33,840 nt of DNA, from positions 1-33,840 of the forward strand of contig JASJQH010000069.1 in NCBI GenBank assembly GCA_040143965.1. Reading direction: 5' to 3'. A program made the translations under genes and the position numbers. The notes beneath the pieces were generated by a model that was given only the letters and a program-made list of their open reading frames with translations, was not told the DNA's origin and searched no databases. Positions 1,099 to 33,196 of the stretch are shown here, in pieces. Origin of the DNA: Basidiobolus ranarum. Its lineage: Eukaryota. Every line of letters begins with the position of its first letter. Positions within the stretch are counted from its first letter, which is position 1.

Positions 1099-2231
1099 CT
1101 ACTCGTATTCAGATACTGTCATGTTAGATTCACTCTCTATTTTAGAGTCAATCGTTTCTAATTCATTGGCACCTTTGGAAATATCTTCTGGAAGAAGGGC
1201 AGATACCACAGGGAATGGACTTTCGATAGTTTCCTTACTCTCCGCCGAGGGTTGATAAACGGTTCCGTTGTATGTACACATCTCGCGCTCATATCGCTGC
1301 TTATCCTGGGCAGAGATGTCGTAGTATTTCTACAAATGTATACAACTTCGTTAGCTACCCGTTCATAGGGATTAACTTTAGTTCTATGTAAAACAAACTT
1401 TTTTCTCTTCCATAGTCATAACCTTCCACCGTTGGCCAAGCATTTTGGTCAGCTCACTAAGCGAGGCATCCTGATGAATTTCTTTGAGTTTTGATCTCTC
1501 TAGTTGACAAAACACAAAGAAAGAATTGGACGGACGTTTTGGTGCATTAGGGTCTTTCTCCGTCTTTTTGGGTGTAGGTCTCTCCACTTGCTCTACTTCC
1601 GACTGGGTAAATGAAAATGCCATATGATTTAGTTAGATCAACATCCACATATAATTATATACGCAACTATCGATATTAAAATAGTCAACCTCACTGTTAG
1701 TTTCGGCCTCGGAGTCGTGTTCGTTTTCTCCTTTGACATTTTCCAATCTATCAAATAGAAAACTAAGCCGATAACAACTTAATTTTAATAACTATTCTAT
1801 GACTCATAACAAATACGTTGTGAACAAGATTACTTTCGCTCTACTTTTGTTCGACGTACATTCTTCTTTACTCTGCTAATTTTTATCACCAATCCTTCGT
1901 TAAACTAAATAGATAGAAGAGCAGGAGTAAATTAAATATTCAAGATAGATTACTTGTTTTGTCACCTTATCAAAATATATCCTCTTTACCTTTTCAATCT
2001 CGTGCACTCTTTTCTTCAGTTCCTGGTATTTCGTTTTATACTTCACTTCTAATAGCAAAGCGGTTTAAGTACCTTTTTACCGTAATATAAAGGATACATA
2101 ACGTTCACATACCATCGGAAGAGTCCCCAGCCTTAGGAGAGTGTGAGTGTTTGGGCTAAGAGTAAAATACAGTGGTTAGATTCATTCATTAGGTAAATGC
2201 AAAGAAAGTAAGCAGATACTTTGGATGTCAT
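1099..2231 (-). CDS. NHP10-like HMG-box protein (INO80 complex associated), about 7 exons
   Basis: Spliced N-terminal coiled coil YKTKYQELKKRVHEIEK..RRTKVER..LFDRL, then an HMG box KDPNAPKRPSNSFFVFC..LGQRWK..EEKK|KYYDISAQDKQRYEREM. All introns are GT-AG; ATG at 2231. Confidence 0.8.
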
Positions 2232-21459: not shown

Positions 21460-23104
21460 CTAGTGACGCTGTGGGCTGGGTGTGCGTGGCCCTTTGGGAA
21501 TTTGTGGATGTCGATTTGAGTGGCCACGTTCTCCATTATCTAAATTTTGTGGAGCTCTCGGCCTACGATTTGGTGGGCTGCGAGAACGTCTTCTATCATC
21601 CCTATCAGAAGTCCATTAACGAGGTTGATCAAATGCAACAACATGTATAGCAAAAACTACTTACTTTGGGTGGTCGCGACGTTCCCGACCACGGTCATAG
21701 TCACGCACGCCTTCATAGTGGGTATCACGAAGTTTGGGCGGAGTACGAGGTCTTTGTGCAGGCTGGTAATCTCTATAATATCAAAAATAGGGGGAGGTTG
21801 GTTGACGTTCACGATGATTTCAACAAGTTGGTACGATAACTTGCCTATTAAATTCGGAACGTTGTGAATAATGAGGAGGTGAAAACCGTGACCTAGATGT
21901 AGGCCTTGGTGGCCGGGAGAAGGATCCGTATCGATCGCGTTCACCTAAAATCTGCTCTCTTTCGTATCTTTCTCTAAAATAATTATCATCTCTATCATAA
22001 TATAGATCACGCTCGGATGGAGGATATACTGGACGGTACTCTCGATCGGGATAGCCTCTCTCTGAATCTTGATAATTAGGGCGACTGTATGATCGATGGT
22101 CCTTAGAATAGCTTAAATCTGTAGGCCGCTCATAACGATCTGGATAAGTGTCACGACGTAGGTGATCATGGGCAGGACGGATCTGCGCTTGTGAAGGAAG
22201 ATATCTATCGTATCGACCCGGTGGCCTACTTTCACGTTCTTGTCGACGAGAATCATAATTTCTTTCTCTTGAAGGACTATTGTACCTTCTATGATCCTCG
22301 CCTCGTGACACTGCGCGTGGCTCTCGTGAAATATCACGTTTTGGTCTGGTTTCATCTCGTGTGCCTCGTGGTGCACTAAATAAACAAGGAACAATGTTAC
22401 CAAGATAAAGGAGAGAGATGATGACAATTACCCAACTCAAAACAAAAAGAAGAACAATTTCATGATATCTTGTTTGAATATACTAAACGTAGTGGAATGG
22501 TTTCTCGCGATGATGAATAAAAACATACCTTGGACAATCGCGAACCCAATGGCCAATGCCCCCACAATTGAAGCAAGGATCTTTGTCTTTAGCTGGACGA
22601 ATATGTCTCGATTCATCCCTGTTGTTTACATAATCACGGTTGGAATCCACTCTACTGGTCTGGGGCTCTCGTCGTAGGTTTTCGTTTTGAGAGCCAACCT
22701 CCGTTTGTATTTGATTCGAATTTTTGAATGCATCAGTTTTAACGACATGAGGATCTCTAGAAGTATGGGCAAGTTCTACTCGAAGGGTTGATCCAAGAAA
22801 ATCTTTACCATGCATCTCCCTGAGAGCATCTTGACAGCTAGTTGGGTTGTCGTATTCCTTAGTTTCAGAAACATAGAACGAATTAATCAAGCATTATAAT
22901 AAGGTCTATCAACAACGGTGAGTGAAAATACAGTCCGCTACATCGAGAGAGTTTGTCGAATGAGTGCGAGATGAAACTTACGAGGAAACAATACGTGTTC
23001 TTAAATTCGATATTTGACGTGTGTCCAAAACGGGAGAAGAAGTCCTTTATGTCTTTAGGACCCACAGTACTCGATATGCCGCCAATGTATATTTTGTAAG
23101 ACAT
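21460..23104 (-). CDS. SR-like splicing factor: RRM, CCHC zinc knuckle and R/D/Y/S-rich tail (SRSF7/9G8-like architecture), 5 exons
   Basis: KIYIGGI..KNTYCFL|EYD..GSTLRVELA (RRM), CFNCGGIGHWVRDC (zinc knuckle), and RSRSP/RTPSP in the tail. Stop TAG at 21462-21460. Confidence 0.82.
21773..21844 (-). other. GC-AG intron in the SR-like gene
   Basis: Minus strand AATAG|GCAAGT...ATTATAG|AGATTAC, a strong GC donor context. Splicing gives EFNR-DYQPAQRPRTPP and avoids the in-frame stop at 21820. Confidence 0.75.
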
Positions 23105-23408
23105 GTCAAGTCAACAGGCTAGCAGTGAACTAAAAAATATAGTCAGTAGCTATAGCAGTTCAAAGCTTCACTCAAAGGCTATTCTTACCAACCAAGCGAC
23201 TTGGTCACTTAAGATAAATATTAATTTGATTATTTTGCTTTTGCTTGAGATTTCAAGAGTGATCTGATCTAGTATCGTTGGAATTTTCCATCAAGCAGGA
23301 GATAACAATGGAGTTGTTAATTGGGCATTTGACCTTGAGTTTCATATTTGTATTTATGTTAAAGCAAAATGTTTTTCATGTGGTATCTTCTACCTAGGTG
23401 TGTCCAAG

Positions 23409-24704
23409 ATGCAGTATTCATTTTATAAACGCCCTTTGCCATCCAATCTGATAGCTTTCGCATCTACTGAAGGAAAGGAACTATTCAAAGAAACCTTAAA
23501 TGAAGGAAATCTTGAGTCTTATTTTACACTAATTCAACAATTCGATACTCAGAACGATCCAGCTTTTTGTGCTCTGAGTAGTTTAACTATTGTACTTAAT
23601 ACTTTAGAAGTAGATCCAAAACGCCAATGGAAAGGTGTTTGGCGATGGTATAGTGATGAGATGCTTGATTGCTGTCGATCATTAGAACAGGTTCGAGAAA
23701 CTGGAGTAACACTTCCTGAATTTTCGTGTTTAGCTAAATGCAATGGGCTCGACGAACAGACGAATCGTGCAGACCTAACCACTAAGGATAAATTTTGGGA
23801 TGATTTAATAAAGGTATCACAATCTTCAGATACCCTCATGGTAGTAGCTTATCACCGCAAAACTCTGGGACAAACCGGGAGTGGTCATTATTCCCCTGTT
23901 GCCGGGGTGAACCAAAAGAAAAAAATGGTTTTGATACTCGACGTCGCTAGATTTAAATATCCAGTCTACTGGGTTCCGTTTGAGCTTTTATGGGATTCCT
24001 TAAACCCCATAGATTCAGAGACTGGCAAACCGCGAGGATATATTCTTTTGAAAAAAACCCAACAGTTTACTGAAGGACTAGTTCGTTTAGCCTTGAATAA
24101 AAACTCATGGCTGAAACTTTCCAAGACTTTACGCTTGTTGGATGTAAGTACTTGTCAAACTTCGAAGGATCTGGTCTGCCTGATAGTAAAAGGAATTCCA
24201 ATTGAGTATAGTTCGCTAGTCGAGATGAAAATAACCCCAACCATTATCGAAAACAGTGATAGTGATGAAGAATTTTGCGCAGAAAGTTCAAAGAGGCTAA
24301 ACGAAGAGAATAAGCATCGTCAAATCGAAGAGCTAGTTTCAGCGGTAAAAACCCTTCCTATCTACCAGATTGTTGAATCCGTACTTCCATCCAGCTCGAT
24401 TGATAGTACATGTGAGAAGACCAATTCATTGCATCCTCGTTTGTATGTTCCTCCGAACTCCTGCAGTCAGTATATAGCTTTTCTCTCTCTATTCCTACTG
24501 GCTTGGGTTCAAACGACTCGCAAAACATGCTCTGCCAGTGTACCTTCTATGCCAGAGCACTTGGTTACTGAGCTTGTCGATTCAGTGTCCCAATCCACCT
24601 TAGTGTTACACGAGATTGAGGTCATTTCTAAGCAGATTCAATCTTTGAATTCATGCTGTGATGAAGAAAGAGTTAAACGATGCTGTTGCAAACATTCTTC
24701 ATGA
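23409..24704 (+). CDS. PCS1: Phytochelatin synthase (glutathione gamma-glutamylcysteinyltransferase)
   Basis: SFYKRPLP, TQNDPAFCAL (catalytic Cys), DPKRQWKGVWRWYSDEMLDCC, GHYSP (His), LDVARFKYP (Asp), and a Cys-rich C-terminus. First ATG at 23409; single exon. Confidence 0.95.
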   Translation: MQYSFYKRPLPSNLIAFASTEGKELFKETLNEGNLESYFTLIQQFDTQNDPAFCALSSLTIVLNTLEVDPKRQWKGVWRWYSDEMLDCCRSLEQVRETGVTLPEFSCLAKCNGLDEQTNRADLTTKDKFWDDLIKVSQSSDTLMVVAYHRKTLGQTGSGHYSPVAGVNQKKKMVLILDVARFKYPVYWVPFELLWDSLNPIDSETGKPRGYILLKKTQQFTEGLVRLALNKNSWLKLSKTLRLLDVSTCQTSKDLVCLIVKGIPIEYSSLVEMKITPTIIENSDSDEEFCAESSKRLNEENKHRQIEELVSAVKTLPIYQIVESVLPSSSIDSTCEKTNSLHPRLYVPPNSCSQYIAFLSLFLLAWVQTTRKTCSASVPSMPEHLVTELVDSVSQSTLVLHEIEVISKQIQSLNSCCDEERVKRCCCKHSS

Positions 24705-25076: not shown

Positions 25077-28000
25077 ATGTCAACCCCTAAAGAGCAATTG
25101 TTGGCCGCTCTTACTGAGATAGCTTCGCAGGTTCCTGAAAGACTCAAGCCTGCAGAAGCACAACTAAAACAGTGGGAAACTTCTCCAGATTTCCATGTTA
25201 CTCTACAGGTACTAGTACTTACCAACTTTAGATAGCTACAACTACTTTAATTGCAAAAACCGATGCATTTTCTGAACTTGTTAATTATTTATATATCTTG
25301 TGTCCCCGCAAATAAAACGATAGTAATAACTTTTATATAGGAAATATTTTACGACAAATCTCTCGATTTAAGCATCAGATGGCTAAGCATCATTTACCTT
25401 AAAAATGGAATCGATAGGTATTGGAGGAAAACTGCTAGAAAGTAAGTGCATCTCTTAGCTCAGATAAGATAAAGTTTGTTTTCTGATTCATATTTGACTT
25501 ATAGCGCAATTCTTCCTGAAGAGAAAAGCAAAATTAGAGACCGTATATTACTATCTTTTGACGAACCCCACAAACAGGTGAACATCGTAGCATAAAATAG
25601 TGATAGGACATAGTGATACTCATAGGTTTATCTTGATATTAGCTTGCCATTCAAAGCGCCGTCTTAACTTCGAAAATAGCTAGATTTGACGTACCAGATG
25701 AATGGTAGTTATTTGATATCTCTGATAATTTGATCATTTCAAATTGTTAATGTTGCTTTAGGCCTAATCTTCTTCACACTCTGTTGCGCATTATACAAGA
25801 GTCCACATCCGTTGTTGAGAATCCGTTGAGTAGAGTTGTTCAACAAAATACACTCTACACTTTGCATTTGGTAGTCAAGGCTTTATGTTCTCGAACCCTC
25901 AGTAAAAGTCGCAGAATGCTTGAGAGCGTAAGAATCTCTATTTATCGTCAGTAAGCATCTGTGATGACTTAGCTTACCCATTTTCCTAGGTTTCTCCGGA
26001 ACTTTTCCGCCACATTGCGAATATATATATTCAGCATACCGATACTTTATTTTCACTAGCTGCGTCAAGCACTATTAATCCACAAGATTTAAGTAATGTG
26101 CTTGAGCATTCTCTGGTTTCTCTAAAATGCCTTCGAAGACTTGTGGTACATGGCTTCAAAGATATAAATGCCTCTGAAGAAACCAAGGTTAGTACATAAA
26201 ATTAGCTTTGAAAGAACTACTTAATTAACGTAAGTTCTCGTTTTAGACCTTCTACGTTCTACTTATTAGAAATCTCGCTAAATATCTAGCACTAAGTAAT
26301 ACCATACTCGTATTGCTTATATGTAGATACAATAGAAATGTAACATTCTTTTATATTGTTCTTAGGAAATACTGCCTACATTCACGGAACCGAATCTCAA
26401 GTGTTTACCTTACTCAGTTCACATGTCACCCTAGTTGGTAAAGTGTATCTAGATATTCAAAAGTTCCACCCAGTTCCATTTGTTTTGGCAGACGGATTTG
26501 TCGACGTAATTAAGTATTACTGGGATGTGTTAATATCTGAAGGCGCAAGAGTCAGCAAAATTAATGATGTTTTAGGTGAGAAATCCAATATCTTTACAAC
26601 ATTCATATCGATCTACTAACTTTGGAACTCTGCCAGAATCGTCACAACCGCCACCTTTTGAAAAGTTCTTGATACAAGGTCTTTTACTTATCAAAAATAT
26701 CGTTAAAAACATAGCCTATTCAAGTCATGGAGGTAATGATTTCTCGATTTTATACAACACAATTGTAACTTTTACTGACAATCCTGTTGGTGTAGGCGCC
26801 CAGGATTCAGAAGTTGCCCGTGTTCGTGCTGTTCTTGATGGCAACGTTCTCACACCCTCGTTTGTCACTCAGTTTGCTGAACTATTGATTACCAACTATA
26901 TCTTGCTAAAAAAAGAGGACCTTGAATTGTGGGACTCAGAGCCTGAAGAATGGATTTCAGAGGAAGAAGCAGATCATTGGGAATTCCACCTTCGGGTAAC
27001 AATATAGTTCAACTTTTGGATTGTCACCAAACCAGACTAACCTTTGTTATAGTCCTGCGCAGAGAAGGTCTTTATGGATTTATTTTCGCAATACCGTCAA
27101 ACCCTTACCCCCGTTCTTCTCAACTCCTTGGGGAGTGTATCAGGTATGAATAACGTATATGCTACACCTCTAGAATATGCTAACCAATTCATCAGAGGGA
27201 AATGTGGATGATATGAATAGACTTCTTCTAAAAGATGCAGTTTACTGCTCTATTGGCTTAGCTGCCCATGATCTTTATGATGCCTTAGATTTTGATAGAT
27301 GGCTCGTTGAAAGATTGAATGGCGAAGTAAATAACAAGAGTTCAAAGTATTATCTGGAAGATTTTCTTTAAGCACTATACATGTATTAATTCTCAAATTG
27401 CCGTTTAGCTTTAAAATCATTCGCCGTAGAATCGCTTGGCTCGTTGGAAAATGGATTGGCATTAAAGTATCCAAGGAGTCCCGCACAGAAGTATATAAAT
27501 TGCTTCTTAATTTAATGGTTCCGGAAGAAGATCTCGTTGTTAGAATCACTGCTGTTACCAACCTACGAAGCTATATCCTTTCTATATGTTATTGATCTAT
27601 TCCATAATATGTATCAACCTCTCGCATATCATCCTTAACATTTTACGTATTGATGACTGGGACTTTGAGCCTGAGAAATTTATCCCGTACCTTGAACCCT
27701 CTATTGAATCAATCACAAAGATGTTGGACTCTGTTGAGGAATTCGATAGTAGAATGCGTGTCTTAAATACAATGGCAATGATCGTTGAGCGCATGGAGAA
27801 ACAAGTAAGATTTTTATTTTCCAAGAATCGTCTCTACTTCTGCAATCTTATTCCTACTTTTTTAGATCATTCCCTTTGCTCAAAGAGTTATGGATCTATT
27901 ACCACCTCTCTGGTTTGGATCTCAAGATGAAAATCTGTTCAAATCGTCTATTCTCTTAACGGTCACAAAGCTTGTCGGGGTATGGTTTCCGATATTTGCA

Positions 28001-29464
28001 TACGACCTTTTTTGTATCATGGTATTGATTTATCTTGAATGCTCATTTTAGGCTTTGGGCGAAGCTTCAACTAATATGCATAGTTTTGTCGTCCCTCTTG
28101 TTCAACATAGTACTGATCTCAGCCATGTAGGTTCCTTTAAACATGTGATTTCCTCTTGTTTTACTAATCAGCGTGCTTGCACTTTTATTGGAATTTTCTT
28201 GTGTAGCCTGCACATGTATATTTACTAGACGATGGCTTAGATTTATGGCATATTGCCGTTCAAAACTCGACACAATGCTCACAGGAACTGTACTCTATCT
28301 TCCCCAATGTCATCAATCTATTGGAATATGGGTCCGAAAGCTTGAGGAAAGTCTTGAAGATTGTGGAGAGTTATTTGCTTCTTGCACCCGATATGATTTT
28401 ACAGGTAACATCTCGATTTCGCAAAAACTTTTTATCCGGAGTACTAACCCCCCGTTGAAGAACTTCTCGACCTCATTGATGGACGCTTTCACTAGACTTC
28501 TAGGTGATTTGAAACCTGAAGCCTGTAGAGTTGTTACGCACGTAATCGAAACCATGATTCAGCTAAATCGAATGAGCCTCTGTGGTGATGCGATGATATC
28601 CTCAGGTTTGTTGTGGAAATTGATGACTGCAATTCTCGAGAATAAGGTAATGCAATGATAGGATCCAAACTAGCCACTTGAATCGCTAAAATTTGCACCT
28701 ATTTATTGCTTAGGAATATGCTTATGTCCTTGTGAACTATTTATGTACCTTTGCTCGTGTTGCCTTATTTGATCCGGAACTTTTCGTTAAATTTGTCAAG
28801 ATGGCCGGTGAAAGGTGCAACCCACCTCAACCCGACCTTTTGGGCGTTTTCCTTGACCATTGGATTGACAAGGTAACCACCATCGGCTCATACCCTGTGT
28901 TGGATGATAACTAACTATGCTTTATCTCTAGTTCGACAATATGGGTCATCCAAAGCAACGAAAATTAAATGCATTAGCATTGATAACCCTTGCCGCGTTC
29001 GATATACCGGAGGTTAACCAACGATTCCCTCAATTAGTGGGAATCTGGACCGATGTATTGACAGAAGTCAAAGAAAGCGGGGATGGAGAGTAAGTATATT
29101 CAGGCTTCAATTCAGTTCACGAATCGAGAACGGTTTACTAATTGAATTACGATTAGCTCGTCAATCTATTGGGAAGAAAATACCGAGTATGAAGATGATG
29201 TAGAAGGAAATCCTGAGAGTAATAGACGCCGAGAGGTAAGTAGCATCCAACGATCACTTATCTATAAGATTCTAACCTGTTATTGTTCTGTATGAATAGC
29301 TCTTGCAGCATGACCCTGTTTACTCTACCAATCTAATCCAATACACACAAATGAAGTTGAAAGAGAGTGAAAATGCGCACGGAGGCCCGCAGCTATTTCA
29401 ACAGCAAGTTCTCAGCCATGTGGACCCCTTGTTAGTCGAAGAACTTCAAAGATTACTTTCTTAG
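25077..29464 (+). CDS. IPO11: Importin-11 / Kap120-like karyopherin beta, about 22 exons
   Basis: IBN_N domain AEAQLKQWE..YLKNGIDRYWRK, KIARFDVPDEWP, DLELWDSEPEEW, LLLKDAVY, IIRRRIAWLVGKW, DLVVRIT..IDDWDF, KFDNMGHPKQRKLNALA, and HDPV near the C-terminus. Confidence 0.9.
27573..27646 (+). other. U12-type (minor spliceosome) AT-AC intron in importin-11
   Basis: 5' splice site ATATCCTTT (27573-27581), branch site TCCTTAAC (27632-27639), 3' end TTTAC (AC at 27645-27646). Removal gives an in-frame NLRS-C-IDDWDF. Confidence 0.92.
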
Positions 29465-30389: not shown

Positions 30390-33196
30390 ATGGCTGCAGA
30401 TTTGGCCATAACCCACCACGAAGGATTAAGAACTTATTTATCTTCGTACTTGCAAAGAGGTGAAGAAATATTATTTTGTTATTTTTCTTTATTTGAAGTA
30501 ATAGCTCAATTCTAGTTGGTTGTTATACATATTTCCTGTCAAAAACTCACACCTTTTACCTCTATAACAGAACAAGCTGGTATAAGTGAGCAAAGAAAAT
30601 CTGCTAGAGAAAAATTAACCAAATTATCACGCCAACAGTTTCAAGAACTTTCTACTGATGTGTACGATGAACTTACCCGTCGCATGCTGAACTCTAGTCA
30701 GGGTAAAGTTCACTTGTCTTTTTCTTAGGTAAATATAGTAGATTGATGGCTTTATGTTACAGCTCCCTTTCTTCCCGTGAGTGATGATTTCCACCCCAAA
30801 CGTAACCAAGCGCGTCAGAAATTAGCCACACTCTCCAAAACTAGGTTTAAAGATCTTGCCAGTGACGTATTTTGTGAGTTAGAAAGAAGATATCCAGAAC
30901 TTAAAGAGCAGAGAATTAAAGAAAACATGGTAGAAAAGGTAGAAAGTTATCTGGTTTCTGTTTAATGTTTATTACACTCGCTCATTATCTTTTTAATAAT
31001 ATAACAGCCACGCTCCCTCAACTCGCAGCCTACTTCTAGTATCCCACCATATGCAAATGATTCTATTTACTCGTCAAAGTCGGATGGTGATATACGCGAT
31101 ACAGCGCGTAATAAAGACGCGATGCCCACAGATGTATCTAAATCGGTGATTTTAAAATCTTCCTCAAAAGGTGAAGATAATCTACCCAACTACGATTTGT
31201 TGGTAAACTTTGACTCTTTGGATAACTTGATGGCCGACTTGGGACATATGATAGGCGAAAATAAAGAGGCCCGCGATCCCCCCAAGCCTAAGATAAATTC
31301 ACCAAACTCAACCAAAAAGCTTCCTTCTAAAGAGGAGCATCCTATCCAGGTTCCTATTAAATATTATGTTGTAGACGTCTTTACTTGTAACATAACAAAT
31401 TTTCGCTACAGAATGGCGCCTTGAAACACTCCAATTCCGGGTCGGAGGAAGAAACTGAGGCTTTACGTAAAGACAGTGCTGAATTGAGCCATGTGTCATC
31501 GGTTAGTATCTGGTTACCAGTCTCTAAAAGTAGATTCAGTGATATTGAAATCATTTTATTACAGCAGCCAAATGCTTCAGCGGCTGAATCAATCATAGTA
31601 AAGCAATTGCAAGACGAGTTGGAAAAACAGAAATCTGTACGTTACAAACCATTTTCTAGACGTGTCGACATTATTTAACGCTTTATATTACTCTTCAGTT
31701 AAATCAACAACAGGACCTTATTTTAACTAAACTTCAAAGAGATCATGAGCATTTGCTCAAAGATTACAAGAGTCAACTAGAGGTGAAAGGAGACTTCTCG
31801 TTCATAACGCATGACGCATATCAAAGATCTCTAACAATACATCACAATAGGTTAGCAACAGTATCAAATCGGAAATGTCAACTTTGCTGTCGGAGATAGA
31901 AAGTGTATCGAAAAAAAACGAGGAACTGATATTACGACACGAGCAGACTCAAGCAAAACTGAAACATACCACAGACGAAGTAAACTAATAACTCAATCAC
32001 TTTTCTCGTAAGTCGTTTACTCATATTTTGATGTTTCATTAGAGAACAAAAATTCAGCAAAAACTTGATGAGACCAAGTCAGAGTTGCGTCGCTTGAAAG
32101 GTACCATCCAGATAAAGTCATACGTTTGCTTAATTTCTATGATACTTACATTTCTTTTGCAAAGCTACCTCGGCTTACATTCGAACCGCACCCAAAACTC
32201 ACATCAATGATAATAGTTTAATGAAGCCTCACTCGCATGGTGTCATTGAGGTGGAGAAAGTCACTTCTTACCAAGTGGCTGTAGATGATTTACTATGTGC
32301 TGCCAGGTATGTTTGTAAAGTATTCGAGACAATAGTAAATTACTGGACGTGAACATTTCTCTACTAGATCTGATACTCCTACTGGGGTTCTTATGGCGAT
32401 GAAATCCATAGTCATTACATGCAAGGCACTTACTGAAAGTGTTGAAAAGCACGAGCAAAGAATTGAAGTGGCTGAAGGTGATAATCGGAGAGAAAACATC
32501 AACACCCTTATGTCTAGGATTTCTACCAACCTCTCCAACTTAATGGCTGCTGCAAAAAACCACGCCACTGGATTTGGCGTTTCTCCGGTTTCCCTTCTGG
32601 ATGCAGCGGCCAACAATCTTACAGTAGTTATTGTGGATCTAGTCAGACAGCTCAAGATTAAAAAAAGTCGTACAGAGAGGCCCTCAAATCCCGATGAATC
32701 CGGACATTCTGACGATGATGTTACACTGTCGACTGTGTTGAGCAATTTAAGCACTCGAGATACTAGCCCTAGTTCCGGCAAGCAGTCTATCTTAGAGGTT
32801 AATGAGCTCAAACAATATTTGGAACGCCAAACCGATTCCATTGTGCAAGCTATTCAAGCACTCCTTCAAATAATCAGAAGCTCTCAATTTGGACAAGAGC
32901 TTACCGCTACTATCGAAAATATTAATACCATTGTACAGGATCTAGTAAATATTTCGCGCCACAGCTTTACCAATAGCACTTCTGGAATGCCATATCGGCA
33001 TCGGGCAGAGGCCATACTTTCAGATCTAGAGTCAAGTAATAGCAAAATGTTTAAACTTCAAAGCGATCTAACAAAAGGTACTGACGATGCTCAAGCGTCC
33101 TCGAGCCCTAACCATAAGATTCTTAAGCAGAAGTTGGCTAGTGCCTCCTTTGAAATTGCCAAATATACTAAAGAGCTTGTTGGACTGATAGAATAA
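30390..33196 (+). CDS. SPA2: Spa2/GIT-like cell polarity scaffold (two Spa2-homology repeats, coiled coil, GIT1 C-terminal-like domain), about 11 exons
   Basis: SAREKLTKLSRQQFQELSTDVYDELTRR, DFHPKRNQARQKLATLSKTRFKDLASDVFCELERRYP, VSPVSLLDAAA and KQKLASASFEIAKYTKELV. Confidence 0.9.

What the first reader, a model, noticed from the sequence alone, without database searches (positions are those of the whole stretch)
27573..27646. Textbook U12-type AT-AC intron: this fungus appears to keep a functional minor spliceosome
Seen: a 74-nt intron with ATATCCTTT donor, TCCTTAAC branch site ending 7 nt before the intron end, an AC acceptor, no polypyrimidine tract, and in-frame restoration of LRSCIDDWDF. 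The other importin-11 introns I read are GT-AG. Known: Dikarya lost the minor spliceosome, while some early-diverging fungi retain it. Standard gene finders miss AT-AC introns, so this gene is probably mis-annotated. Inference: U11/U12/U4atac/U6atac are encoded elsewhere in the genome, and this intron could rate-limit importin-11 expression.
Basis: partly seen in the sequence, partly recalled or inferred. Interest (0 to 1): 0.8.

Follow-up and report, generated by a model that had tools for sequence, protein, structure and literature searches.

The report
Real U12-type intron in importin-11
The 74-base AT-AC intron in the importin-11 gene of the fungus Basidiobolus ranarum is a genuine minor-spliceosome-type intron, but the genus is already published as the fungal group richest in such introns, so it is a correct and fairly ordinary finding.

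Summary
Window 27573-27646 (+) is a 74-nt intron with ATATCCTTT at its 5' end, TCCTTAAC at 27632-27639 (7 nt before the end) and a terminal AC. It is intron 13 of 21 in a 22-exon importin-11 gene; the other 20 introns are GT-AG.

Removing it joins T|GT into a Cys codon and gives LRSCIDDWDF. That stretch is collinear with 35 of 44 aligned homologues. No GT/GC-AG alternative keeps this block.

The window is a Basidiobolus ranarum contig. A Glomeromycotina-like metagenome contig (L006) carries an orthologous 77-nt AT-AC intron at the same codon and phase.

Splicing was not seen directly. No genome or RNA reads were available, so the minor snRNAs and proteins of this genome could not be tested.

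Two published surveys already report B. meristosporus as the fungus with the highest minor-intron density, and one of them reports U11, U12 and U6atac genes there.

It is right for the orthologues in B. meristosporus and four Glomeromycota species. Rate-limiting of importin-11 expression is untested.

The parts
25077..29464 (+). Importin-11 coding region: 22 exons, 21 introns, 994 codons plus stop
   Evidence: Exact mapping of the deposited protein P0001 onto the window. Pfam TPR_IPO11 E=7e-111 and IBN_N E=2.7e-20.
27409..27572 (+). Exon 13, ending ...AAC CTA CGA AGC T (the first base of the split Cys codon)
27573..27646 (+). Intron 13: 74 nt, AT-AC, phase 1, U12-type by sequence
   Evidence: Orthologous intron in L006.
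27573..27581 (+). 5' splice-site motif ATATCCTTT
   Evidence: The exon's last T plus ATATCCTT are identical in L006.
27632..27639 (+). Branch-site motif TCCTTAAC. The candidate branch adenosines 27637/27638 lie 9 and 8 nt before the last intron base.
   Evidence: L006 has TTCTTAAC at the aligned place.
27645..27646 (+). 3' terminal AC
27596..27598 (+). In-frame TGA met if the intron is retained (reads ...LRSYILSICY*)
27647..27804 (+). Exon 14, starting GT ATT GAT GAC TGG GAC TTT ((C)IDDWDF...)

Best explanation
Window 27573-27646 is a U12-type (minor-spliceosome) intron of the AT-AC subtype. It is intron 13 of the importin-11 gene of Basidiobolus ranarum.

Shown here:
- It must be removed exactly at AT...AC to give the conserved protein.
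- It carries the U12-type 5' splice-site and branch-site motifs.
- It is positionally conserved as an AT-AC intron in a Glomeromycotina-like relative.

Inferred from the established mechanism (review PMC3584512, passages read):
- The U11/U12 di-snRNP recognises ATATCCTTT (U11) and TCCTTAAC (U12) together.
- One of the two adenosines of TCCTTAAC bulges out as the branch point.

If the intron is not removed, translation stops 8 codons into it.

The intron is an old one, present at least in the common ancestor of Basidiobolus and Glomeromycotina. It appears to have been lost in Mortierella-like and Mucor-like lineages.
For: 1. Motifs and coordinates are as stated.
2. Of the 21 introns of the gene, this is the only non-GT-AG one. 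Exactly one junction reproduces the deposited protein.
3. The spliced product is collinear with 35 of 44 aligned homologues over residues 558-574. Cys is the commonest residue at the split codon (14 of 44).
4. There is no AG from 27571 to 27667. Of 52 in-frame GT/GC-AG alternatives, the least destructive deletes 14 residues, including CIDDWDF.
5. L006 is 79-82% identical to the Funneliformis proteins. It has a 77-nt intron ATATCCTTG...TTCTTAAC...AC at the same codon, with the same phase and the same T|GT Cys. When GT-AG, GC-AG and AT-AC pairs were all allowed and P0001 was the guide, this junction scored best.
6. All 7 introns in the covered part of L006 fall at the positions of window introns 13-19.
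7. In the alignment of the two introns, the conserved runs are the splice signals.
8. Gene models of B. meristosporus and of 4 of 4 Glomeromycota species break at exactly this junction. One of them reads YIL, the translation of the donor motif.
9. Literature, passages read. B. meristosporus has 249 (0.554%) or 237 minor introns. One of the two papers (PMC11347168) reports U11, U12 and U6atac genes, with U4atac found only at a lowered threshold.
10. Phase 1 fits the reported bias of minor introns away from phase 0.
Against: - No transcript evidence was obtainable, so excision is inferred, not seen.
- No minor snRNA or minor-specific protein of this genome could be examined. No genome is held and Rfam gives 0 hits in the window.
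- The branch site lies closer to the 3' end than the 11-13 nt optimum quoted in the review. The adenosines are 8-9 nt from the last intron base, and the L006 copy is 4 nt longer at this point.
- The motif triple alone appears in 9.3% of random windows.
- A search for database proteins of 58-188 aa spanning the junction, which could have come from spliced RNA assemblies, found no Basidiobolus entry. It returned 2 hits at 44-46% identity from other fungi.
Confidence: 0.92

Rival explanations
1. An AT-AC intron removed by the major (U2-dependent) spliceosome, like the rare divergent AT-AC subclass that needs the major snRNAs.
For: Such a subclass exists: Wu and Krainer 1997, seen only as a reference-list title. 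TTAAC also fits the loose U2-type pattern yUnAy (pattern named in a reference title; the fit is my reading of the sequence).
Against: - Both ATATCCTTT at the donor and TCCTTAAC near the 3' end match the U12-type consensus, in full or nearly so.
- The same two motifs are what is conserved in L006.
- That the U2-type AT-AC subclass has a U1-like donor instead is recalled, not taken from a call.
- The 20 neighbouring U2-type introns have GTAAGT-like donors, and 11 of the 20 have a CTRAY match.
Confidence: 0.03
2. Not a spliced intron: a chance motif constellation inside an insertion, an assembly error, or a decaying gene copy.
For: The motif triple arises by chance in about 9% of random windows. 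No RNA evidence was available.
Against: - All 22 exons are open and give a full-length importin-11 with strong Pfam matches.
- The 74 nt contain an in-frame stop, so the gene needs them removed.
- An orthologous AT-AC intron sits at the same codon in L006.
- The deposited annotation uses this junction.
Confidence: 0.02
3. A genuine U12-type intron that additionally acts as a regulatory brake: slow or conditional excision, with retained transcripts degraded, limits importin-11 output.
For: - Slow removal of U12-type introns, and the rate-limiting model of Patel et al., are described in the review (passages).
- Retention here gives a premature stop after 8 codons.
- The sub-optimal branch-site-to-3' distance (8-9 nt against an 11-13 nt optimum) could lower efficiency.
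Against: - There are no expression data for this gene.
- In Rhizophagus, the only fungus analysed, minor-intron retention was slightly higher in proliferating cells. The authors argue for largely neutral persistence of minor introns (passages).
- The intron was lost without visible consequence in a Mortierella-like contig (L002) and in Mucor-like ORFs.
Confidence: 0.1

Closest known systems
U12-type (minor-spliceosome) introns, AT-AC subtype, as defined in animals and plants (review PMC3584512)
   Same: The ATATCCTT donor, the TCCTTAAC branch site close to the 3' end, the terminal AC, the absence of a distinct polypyrimidine tract, a non-zero phase, and a position inside an old, conserved, intron-rich gene.
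   Different: The intron is very short (74 nt). The branch adenosines are 8-9 nt from the 3' end, against the quoted optimum of 11-13 nt. The host is a fungus.
Published minor-intron complement of Basidiobolus meristosporus (Larue and Roy 2023, PMC10639083; Olthof et al. 2024, PMC11347168)
   Same: Same genus. The two papers report 249 and 237 minor introns, the highest density known in fungi, and PMC11347168 reports U11/U12/U6atac genes. This intron is one more of that kind.
   Different: The species here is B. ranarum. I saw only B. meristosporus named in the main texts, and supplements were closed. The B. meristosporus importin-11 model skips this junction, so this particular intron may be missing from annotation-based catalogues. 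That is an inference.
Minor introns of Rhizophagus irregularis and other Glomeromycota (PMC10639083)
   Same: The Glomeromycotina-like contig L006 has the orthologous AT-AC intron at the same codon and phase.
   Different: The L006 copy is 77 nt with TTCTTAAC ending 11 nt before the intron end. The interiors of the two introns are largely unalike.

Membership tests
U12-type intron (AT-AC subtype) | 5' splice site matching /RTATCCTT | tested here: met
   ATATCCTTT at 27573-27581.
U12-type intron (AT-AC subtype) | Branch-site motif TCCTTRAY | tested here: met
   TCCTTAAC at 27632-27639.
U12-type intron (AT-AC subtype) | Short branch-site-to-3' splice-site distance (optimum 11-13 nt per PMC3584512) | tested here: inconclusive
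   The branch adenosines 27637/27638 are 9 and 8 nt from the last intron base: short, as required, but below the quoted optimum. The L006 copy has 12-13 nt.
U12-type intron (AT-AC subtype) | Matched terminal dinucleotides AT...AC | tested here: met
U12-type intron (AT-AC subtype) | No distinct polypyrimidine tract | tested here: met
   No long tract is present. The feature does not separate this intron from the 20 GT-AG introns of the gene (70% pyrimidine against a mean of 64%).
U12-type intron (AT-AC subtype) | Exact removal restores the reading frame and the conserved protein | tested here: met
U12-type intron (AT-AC subtype) | U12-type intron at the same position in an orthologue | tested here: met
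   L006 intron 123-199 has the same codon and phase. It is absent in L002, which is continuous across the site.
U12-type intron (AT-AC subtype) | Excision seen in RNA and dependent on U11/U12/U4atac/U6atac | not testable with these tools
No experiment was possible.
U12-type intron (AT-AC subtype) | Minor snRNAs and minor-specific proteins encoded in the same genome | not testable with these tools
   No genome is held. Rfam gives 0 hits in the 33.8-kb window. For the congener B. meristosporus this is taken from the literature only.
U2-type AT-AC intron (major spliceosome) | AT-AC ends with a U1-like donor and no U12-type branch motif (definition recalled) | tested here: not met
   The donor is ATATCCTTT, and TCCTTAAC is present.
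Importin-11 (host gene) | Importin-beta N-terminal domain plus the importin-11 TPR region | tested here: met
   PF03810 E=2.7e-20 and PF25758 E=7e-111 on P0001. Homologues are named Importin-11 in Podila and Mortierella.

The most novel reading that the evidence does not exclude
The importin-11 AT-AC intron is an ancient minor intron. It predates the split of Basidiobolus and Glomeromycotina, and may be orthologous to a minor intron in animal or plant IPO11. Gene finders break on it systematically, so published annotation-based counts of minor introns in early-diverging fungi are underestimates. Its unusually tight branch-site-to-3' spacing may make it a slow step that tunes nuclear-import capacity.
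Probability: 0.15. Interest if true: 0.4.

Novelty: new member of a known kind. Interest (0 to 1): 0.2.

Why it matters
It adds one well-supported example to a known picture: Basidiobolus and Glomeromycota keep many minor-spliceosome introns although Dikarya lost them.

The practical point is annotation. The same intron breaks the importin-11 models of B. meristosporus and of the four Glomeromycota species examined. Catalogues of minor introns built from annotations probably miss introns like this one.

The shared position, phase and split Cys codon in Basidiobolus and a Glomeromycotina-like contig, together with its absence in a Mortierella-like contig and in Mucor-like ORFs, make a small usable marker of minor-intron retention and loss among early-diverging fungi.

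Tried and rejected
- Whole genome. I asked for it in order to search for U11/U12/U4atac/U6atac and the minor-specific proteins. None is held.
- RNA-seq runs.
- Rfam on the window. 0 matches at gathering score.
- Supplementary tables of PMC10639083, for per-intron lists and animal/plant conservation. Closed. They may bear on whether this intron or B. ranarum is already catalogued.
- Text searches for IPO11 as a minor-intron gene. 'IPO11' plus 'minor intron' gave 1 unrelated paper. 'U12-type, importin, AT-AC, conserved' gave 7 papers, none about importin-11 by title or abstract. PMC6865273 has 0 mentions of importin, IPO or karyopherin. I therefore cannot say whether animal or plant IPO11 has a minor intron here.
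- Second U12-type intron in the window. Five other RTATCCTT sites exist.
  - None has a branch-like motif and a terminal AC or AG in range, except 7283(-), which would be AT-AG and lies antisense to a BUD22-like ORF.
  - 28596(+) starts inside exon 18.
  - GTATCCTT at 2097-2090(-) lies inside the GT-AG intron 2112-2049 of the HMG-box gene. Using it would read through a TGA (my reading of the sequence).
  - All are rejected as chance.
- The RRM + CCHC zinc-knuckle gene at about 21820-23110(-), considered as a possible U11/U12-31K (ZCRB1). A PDB sequence search gave only zinc-knuckle hits and weak SR-protein RRM hits (SRSF7 and SRSF3, E about 0.2-0.4) and no ZCRB1 entry. Rejected as evidence for the minor spliceosome.
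- Database proteins of 58-188 aa spanning the junction, as indirect evidence of spliced RNA. No Basidiobolus entry was found.
- One search used the mis-annotated Funneliformis protein as guide. It pulled the first two L006 junctions towards that model's errors (125-207 and 334-426). I rely (guide P0001) for those two introns and for the other five.
- L001, L003, L004 and L005 are uninterrupted full-length ORFs, so they say nothing about introns. L007 ends just short of the site.
- Earlier notes of this scan. None exist on this genome or on look-alike DNA. Two notes on human U12 introns were unrelated.

Full report
**What is there**

The sequence is ...CTA CGA AGC T / ATATCCTTTC ... CATCCTTAACATTTTAC / GT ATT GAT GAC TGG GAC TTT.
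- The intron is 27573-27646, 74 nt, 28% G+C.
- TCCTTAAC occupies 27632-27639, and seven bases follow it.
- The terminal dinucleotides are AT and AC.
- Joining 27572 to 27647 makes a TGT Cys codon (phase 1). The product reads FKIIRRRIAWLVGKW...VTNLRSCIDDWDFEPEKF... without a stop.
- If the intron stays in, the frame reads SYILSICY and then hits TGA at 27596-27598.

**Which gene and which organism**

The upstream exon retrieved a 994-aa protein, P0001. It is 100% identical, comes from a single contig of 33840 bases (the size of this window), and is named hypothetical protein K7432_002546 of Basidiobolus ranarum. P0001 matches Pfam TPR_IPO11 (E=7e-111) and IBN_N (E=2.7e-20), and homologues in Podila and Mortierella are named Importin-11.

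Mapping P0001 back onto the window gives 22 exons between 25077 and 29461 and 21 introns.
- Twenty introns are GT-AG, 52-132 nt (median 62.5).
- Intron 13 is the AT-AC one, and only one junction pair reproduces the protein there.
- The deposited protein already contains LRSCIDDWDF. In this record the gene is therefore not mis-annotated.

**Is it more than chance?**

The motifs alone are not overwhelming.
- RTATCCTT occurs 6 times in the window against 3.0 expected.
- TCCTTRAY occurs 9 times against 6.4 expected.
- A donor, a branch motif 20-480 nt later and a terminal AC or AG 5-15 nt after it occurred at least once in 9.3% of 2000 Markov-1 random windows.

The context is what decides.
- The arrangement is the only one in the window, and it sits exactly where homology demands an intron.
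- In a MAFFT alignment of 44 homologues, 35 are gap-free across P0001 residues 558-574. The alignment took the 41 proteins of at least 800 aa among the 157 held at that point, plus three shorter ones that I chose (P0005, P0007, P0008).
- Cys is the commonest residue at the split codon, in 14 of the 44.
- No AG exists between 27571 and 27667.
- There are 52 in-frame GT/GC-AG pairs that would bypass the stop. The mildest (27554-27669) deletes 14 residues, including CIDDWDF. D57, D60 and F61 of that block are invariant in the ten-sequence alignment A1.

**Related DNA**

One metagenome scan with A1 returned 7 loci.
- L001, L003, L004 and L005 carry uninterrupted full-length ORFs and say nothing about introns.
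- L007 is genomic but ends just short of the site.
- L002 is genomic, with several introns, and 69% identical to Podila importin-11. It is continuous across the site (NLRACIDDWDFEP), so it has no intron there.
- L006 is 79-82% identical to the two Funneliformis proteins and 68% to Entrophospora. It has AGG CAT T / ATATCCTTGATAATC ... TTCTTAAC TTCCAACGCAC / GT GTG GAC GAA TGG GAT TTT. This is a 77-nt AT-AC intron (123-199) in phase 1 that splits a T|GT Cys codon, as in the window.

With GT-AG, GC-AG and AT-AC pairs all allowed and P0001 as guide, that junction scored best in L006. The seven introns in the part of the gene that L006 covers fall after P0001 residues 564/565, 617, 655, 680, 746, 808 and 861. 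These are the positions of window introns 13-19. The alignment of the two introns keeps T/ATATCCTT, T(C/T)CTTAAC and AC/GT, with scattered identities elsewhere.

Two short database ORFs of Mucor-like sequence (P0185, P0186) run through the exon 13/14 boundary without interruption and have non-coding-looking ends. This suggests no intron there either (inference).

**Annotation artefacts in orthologues**

Every one of these models is broken at this junction.
- B. meristosporus (P0002) jumps from EEDLV to SITKML, losing 34 residues.
- Entrophospora (P0003) reads LKEYILTF and then skips an exon. YIL is what T|ATATCCTT gives when read through.
- Funneliformis mosseae and F. geosporum (P0005, P0006) lack three residues (NLRN-EWDF).
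- Ambispora (P0022) skips from RRRIGWLI to DEWDFD.
- Syncephalis (P0085) lacks ten residues at the same place. This may be the same problem or a real deletion.

**How it most likely works**

By the established model (review PMC3584512, passages), the U11/U12 di-snRNP binds the donor and branch motifs. One of the two adenosines is the branch point, and the 3' site is picked by its short distance, without a polypyrimidine tract.

Here the adenosines are 8-9 nt from the last intron base, below the quoted 11-13 nt optimum. The L006 copy is 4 nt longer at that spot. This spacing is the one feature that is slightly off.

The absence of a polypyrimidine tract does not discriminate in this gene. [quoted passage not shown]

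**What is known**

[quoted passage not shown] They report 205 in Rhizophagus and none convincing in Ascomycota or Basidiomycota.
- In Rhizophagus, four minor-specific protein orthologues, all four minor snRNAs and the 1>2>0 phase bias were found.
- Minor-intron retention was not lower in proliferating Rhizophagus cells.
- Olthof et al. 2024 (PMC11347168, passages) report 237 minor introns in B. meristosporus. U11, U12 and U6atac were found in several zoopagomycote and mucoromycote fungi, and U4atac only at a lowered threshold.
- The search 'Basidiobolus' plus 'minor spliceosome' found 4 papers, these two and their preprints. In the two published papers that I read, every occurrence of the genus name concerns B. 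meristosporus.
- I saw no text on B. ranarum or on importin-11 as a minor-intron gene.

**Verdict**

It is wrong on mis-annotation of this record, and untested on regulation.

This is a new member of a known kind in a genus already known for it. The modest added value is the orthologous AT-AC intron in a Glomeromycotina-like contig, the loss pattern, and the systematic model errors in orthologues.

Noticed in passing
L006:123-199 (metagenome contig, Glomeromycotina-like): Orthologous 77-nt AT-AC intron in importin-11 with the same codon, the same phase and the same split Cys. All 7 introns in the covered region share positions with window introns 13-19.
   Followed up: yes
Proteins P0002, P0003, P0005, P0006, P0022 (and perhaps P0085): The deposited importin-11 models of B. 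meristosporus, Entrophospora, two Funneliformis species and Ambispora are all broken exactly at this junction. The Entrophospora model reads the donor motif through as YIL. The Syncephalis model lacks 10 residues there.
   Followed up: partly
L002:3001-3297 and proteins P0185, P0186: A Mortierella-like genomic contig and two Mucor-like ORFs are continuous across the site. The intron appears to have been lost in those lineages.
   Followed up: partly
window 2049-2112 (-): A GTATCCTT at 2097-2090 lies inside an ordinary GT-AG intron (donor GTATGT) of an HMG-box 'non-histone protein' gene (P0176). It is a chance donor look-alike, not a second minor intron.
   Followed up: yes
window 21820-23110 (-): A gene with an RRM, a CCHC zinc knuckle and a long Arg/Asp/Ser/Tyr-rich tail. 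It resembles SR splicing factors weakly (SRSF7 and SRSF3 RRMs, E about 0.2-0.4) and gave no match to the minor-spliceosome 31K protein.
   Followed up: partly
window 23268-24704 (+): A single 478-codon open frame with a full phytochelatin synthase domain (Pfam E=6e-84) lies directly upstream of importin-11.
   Followed up: no
window 84-20292: Other genes seen by Pfam on long ORFs: ribosomal protein S3Ae, UPF0172, BUD22-like, PAP2 phosphatases, a neuropathy-target-esterase-like patatin gene with cNMP-binding domains, and dynactin p150 with CAP-Gly. A GIT1-like gene lies at 32339-33196.
   Followed up: no
protein P0178 (another B. ranarum contig): A second HMG-box 'variant 2' protein, 88% identical over the query exon, sits on a different B. 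ranarum contig. This hints at duplicated genes in this genome.
   Followed up: no
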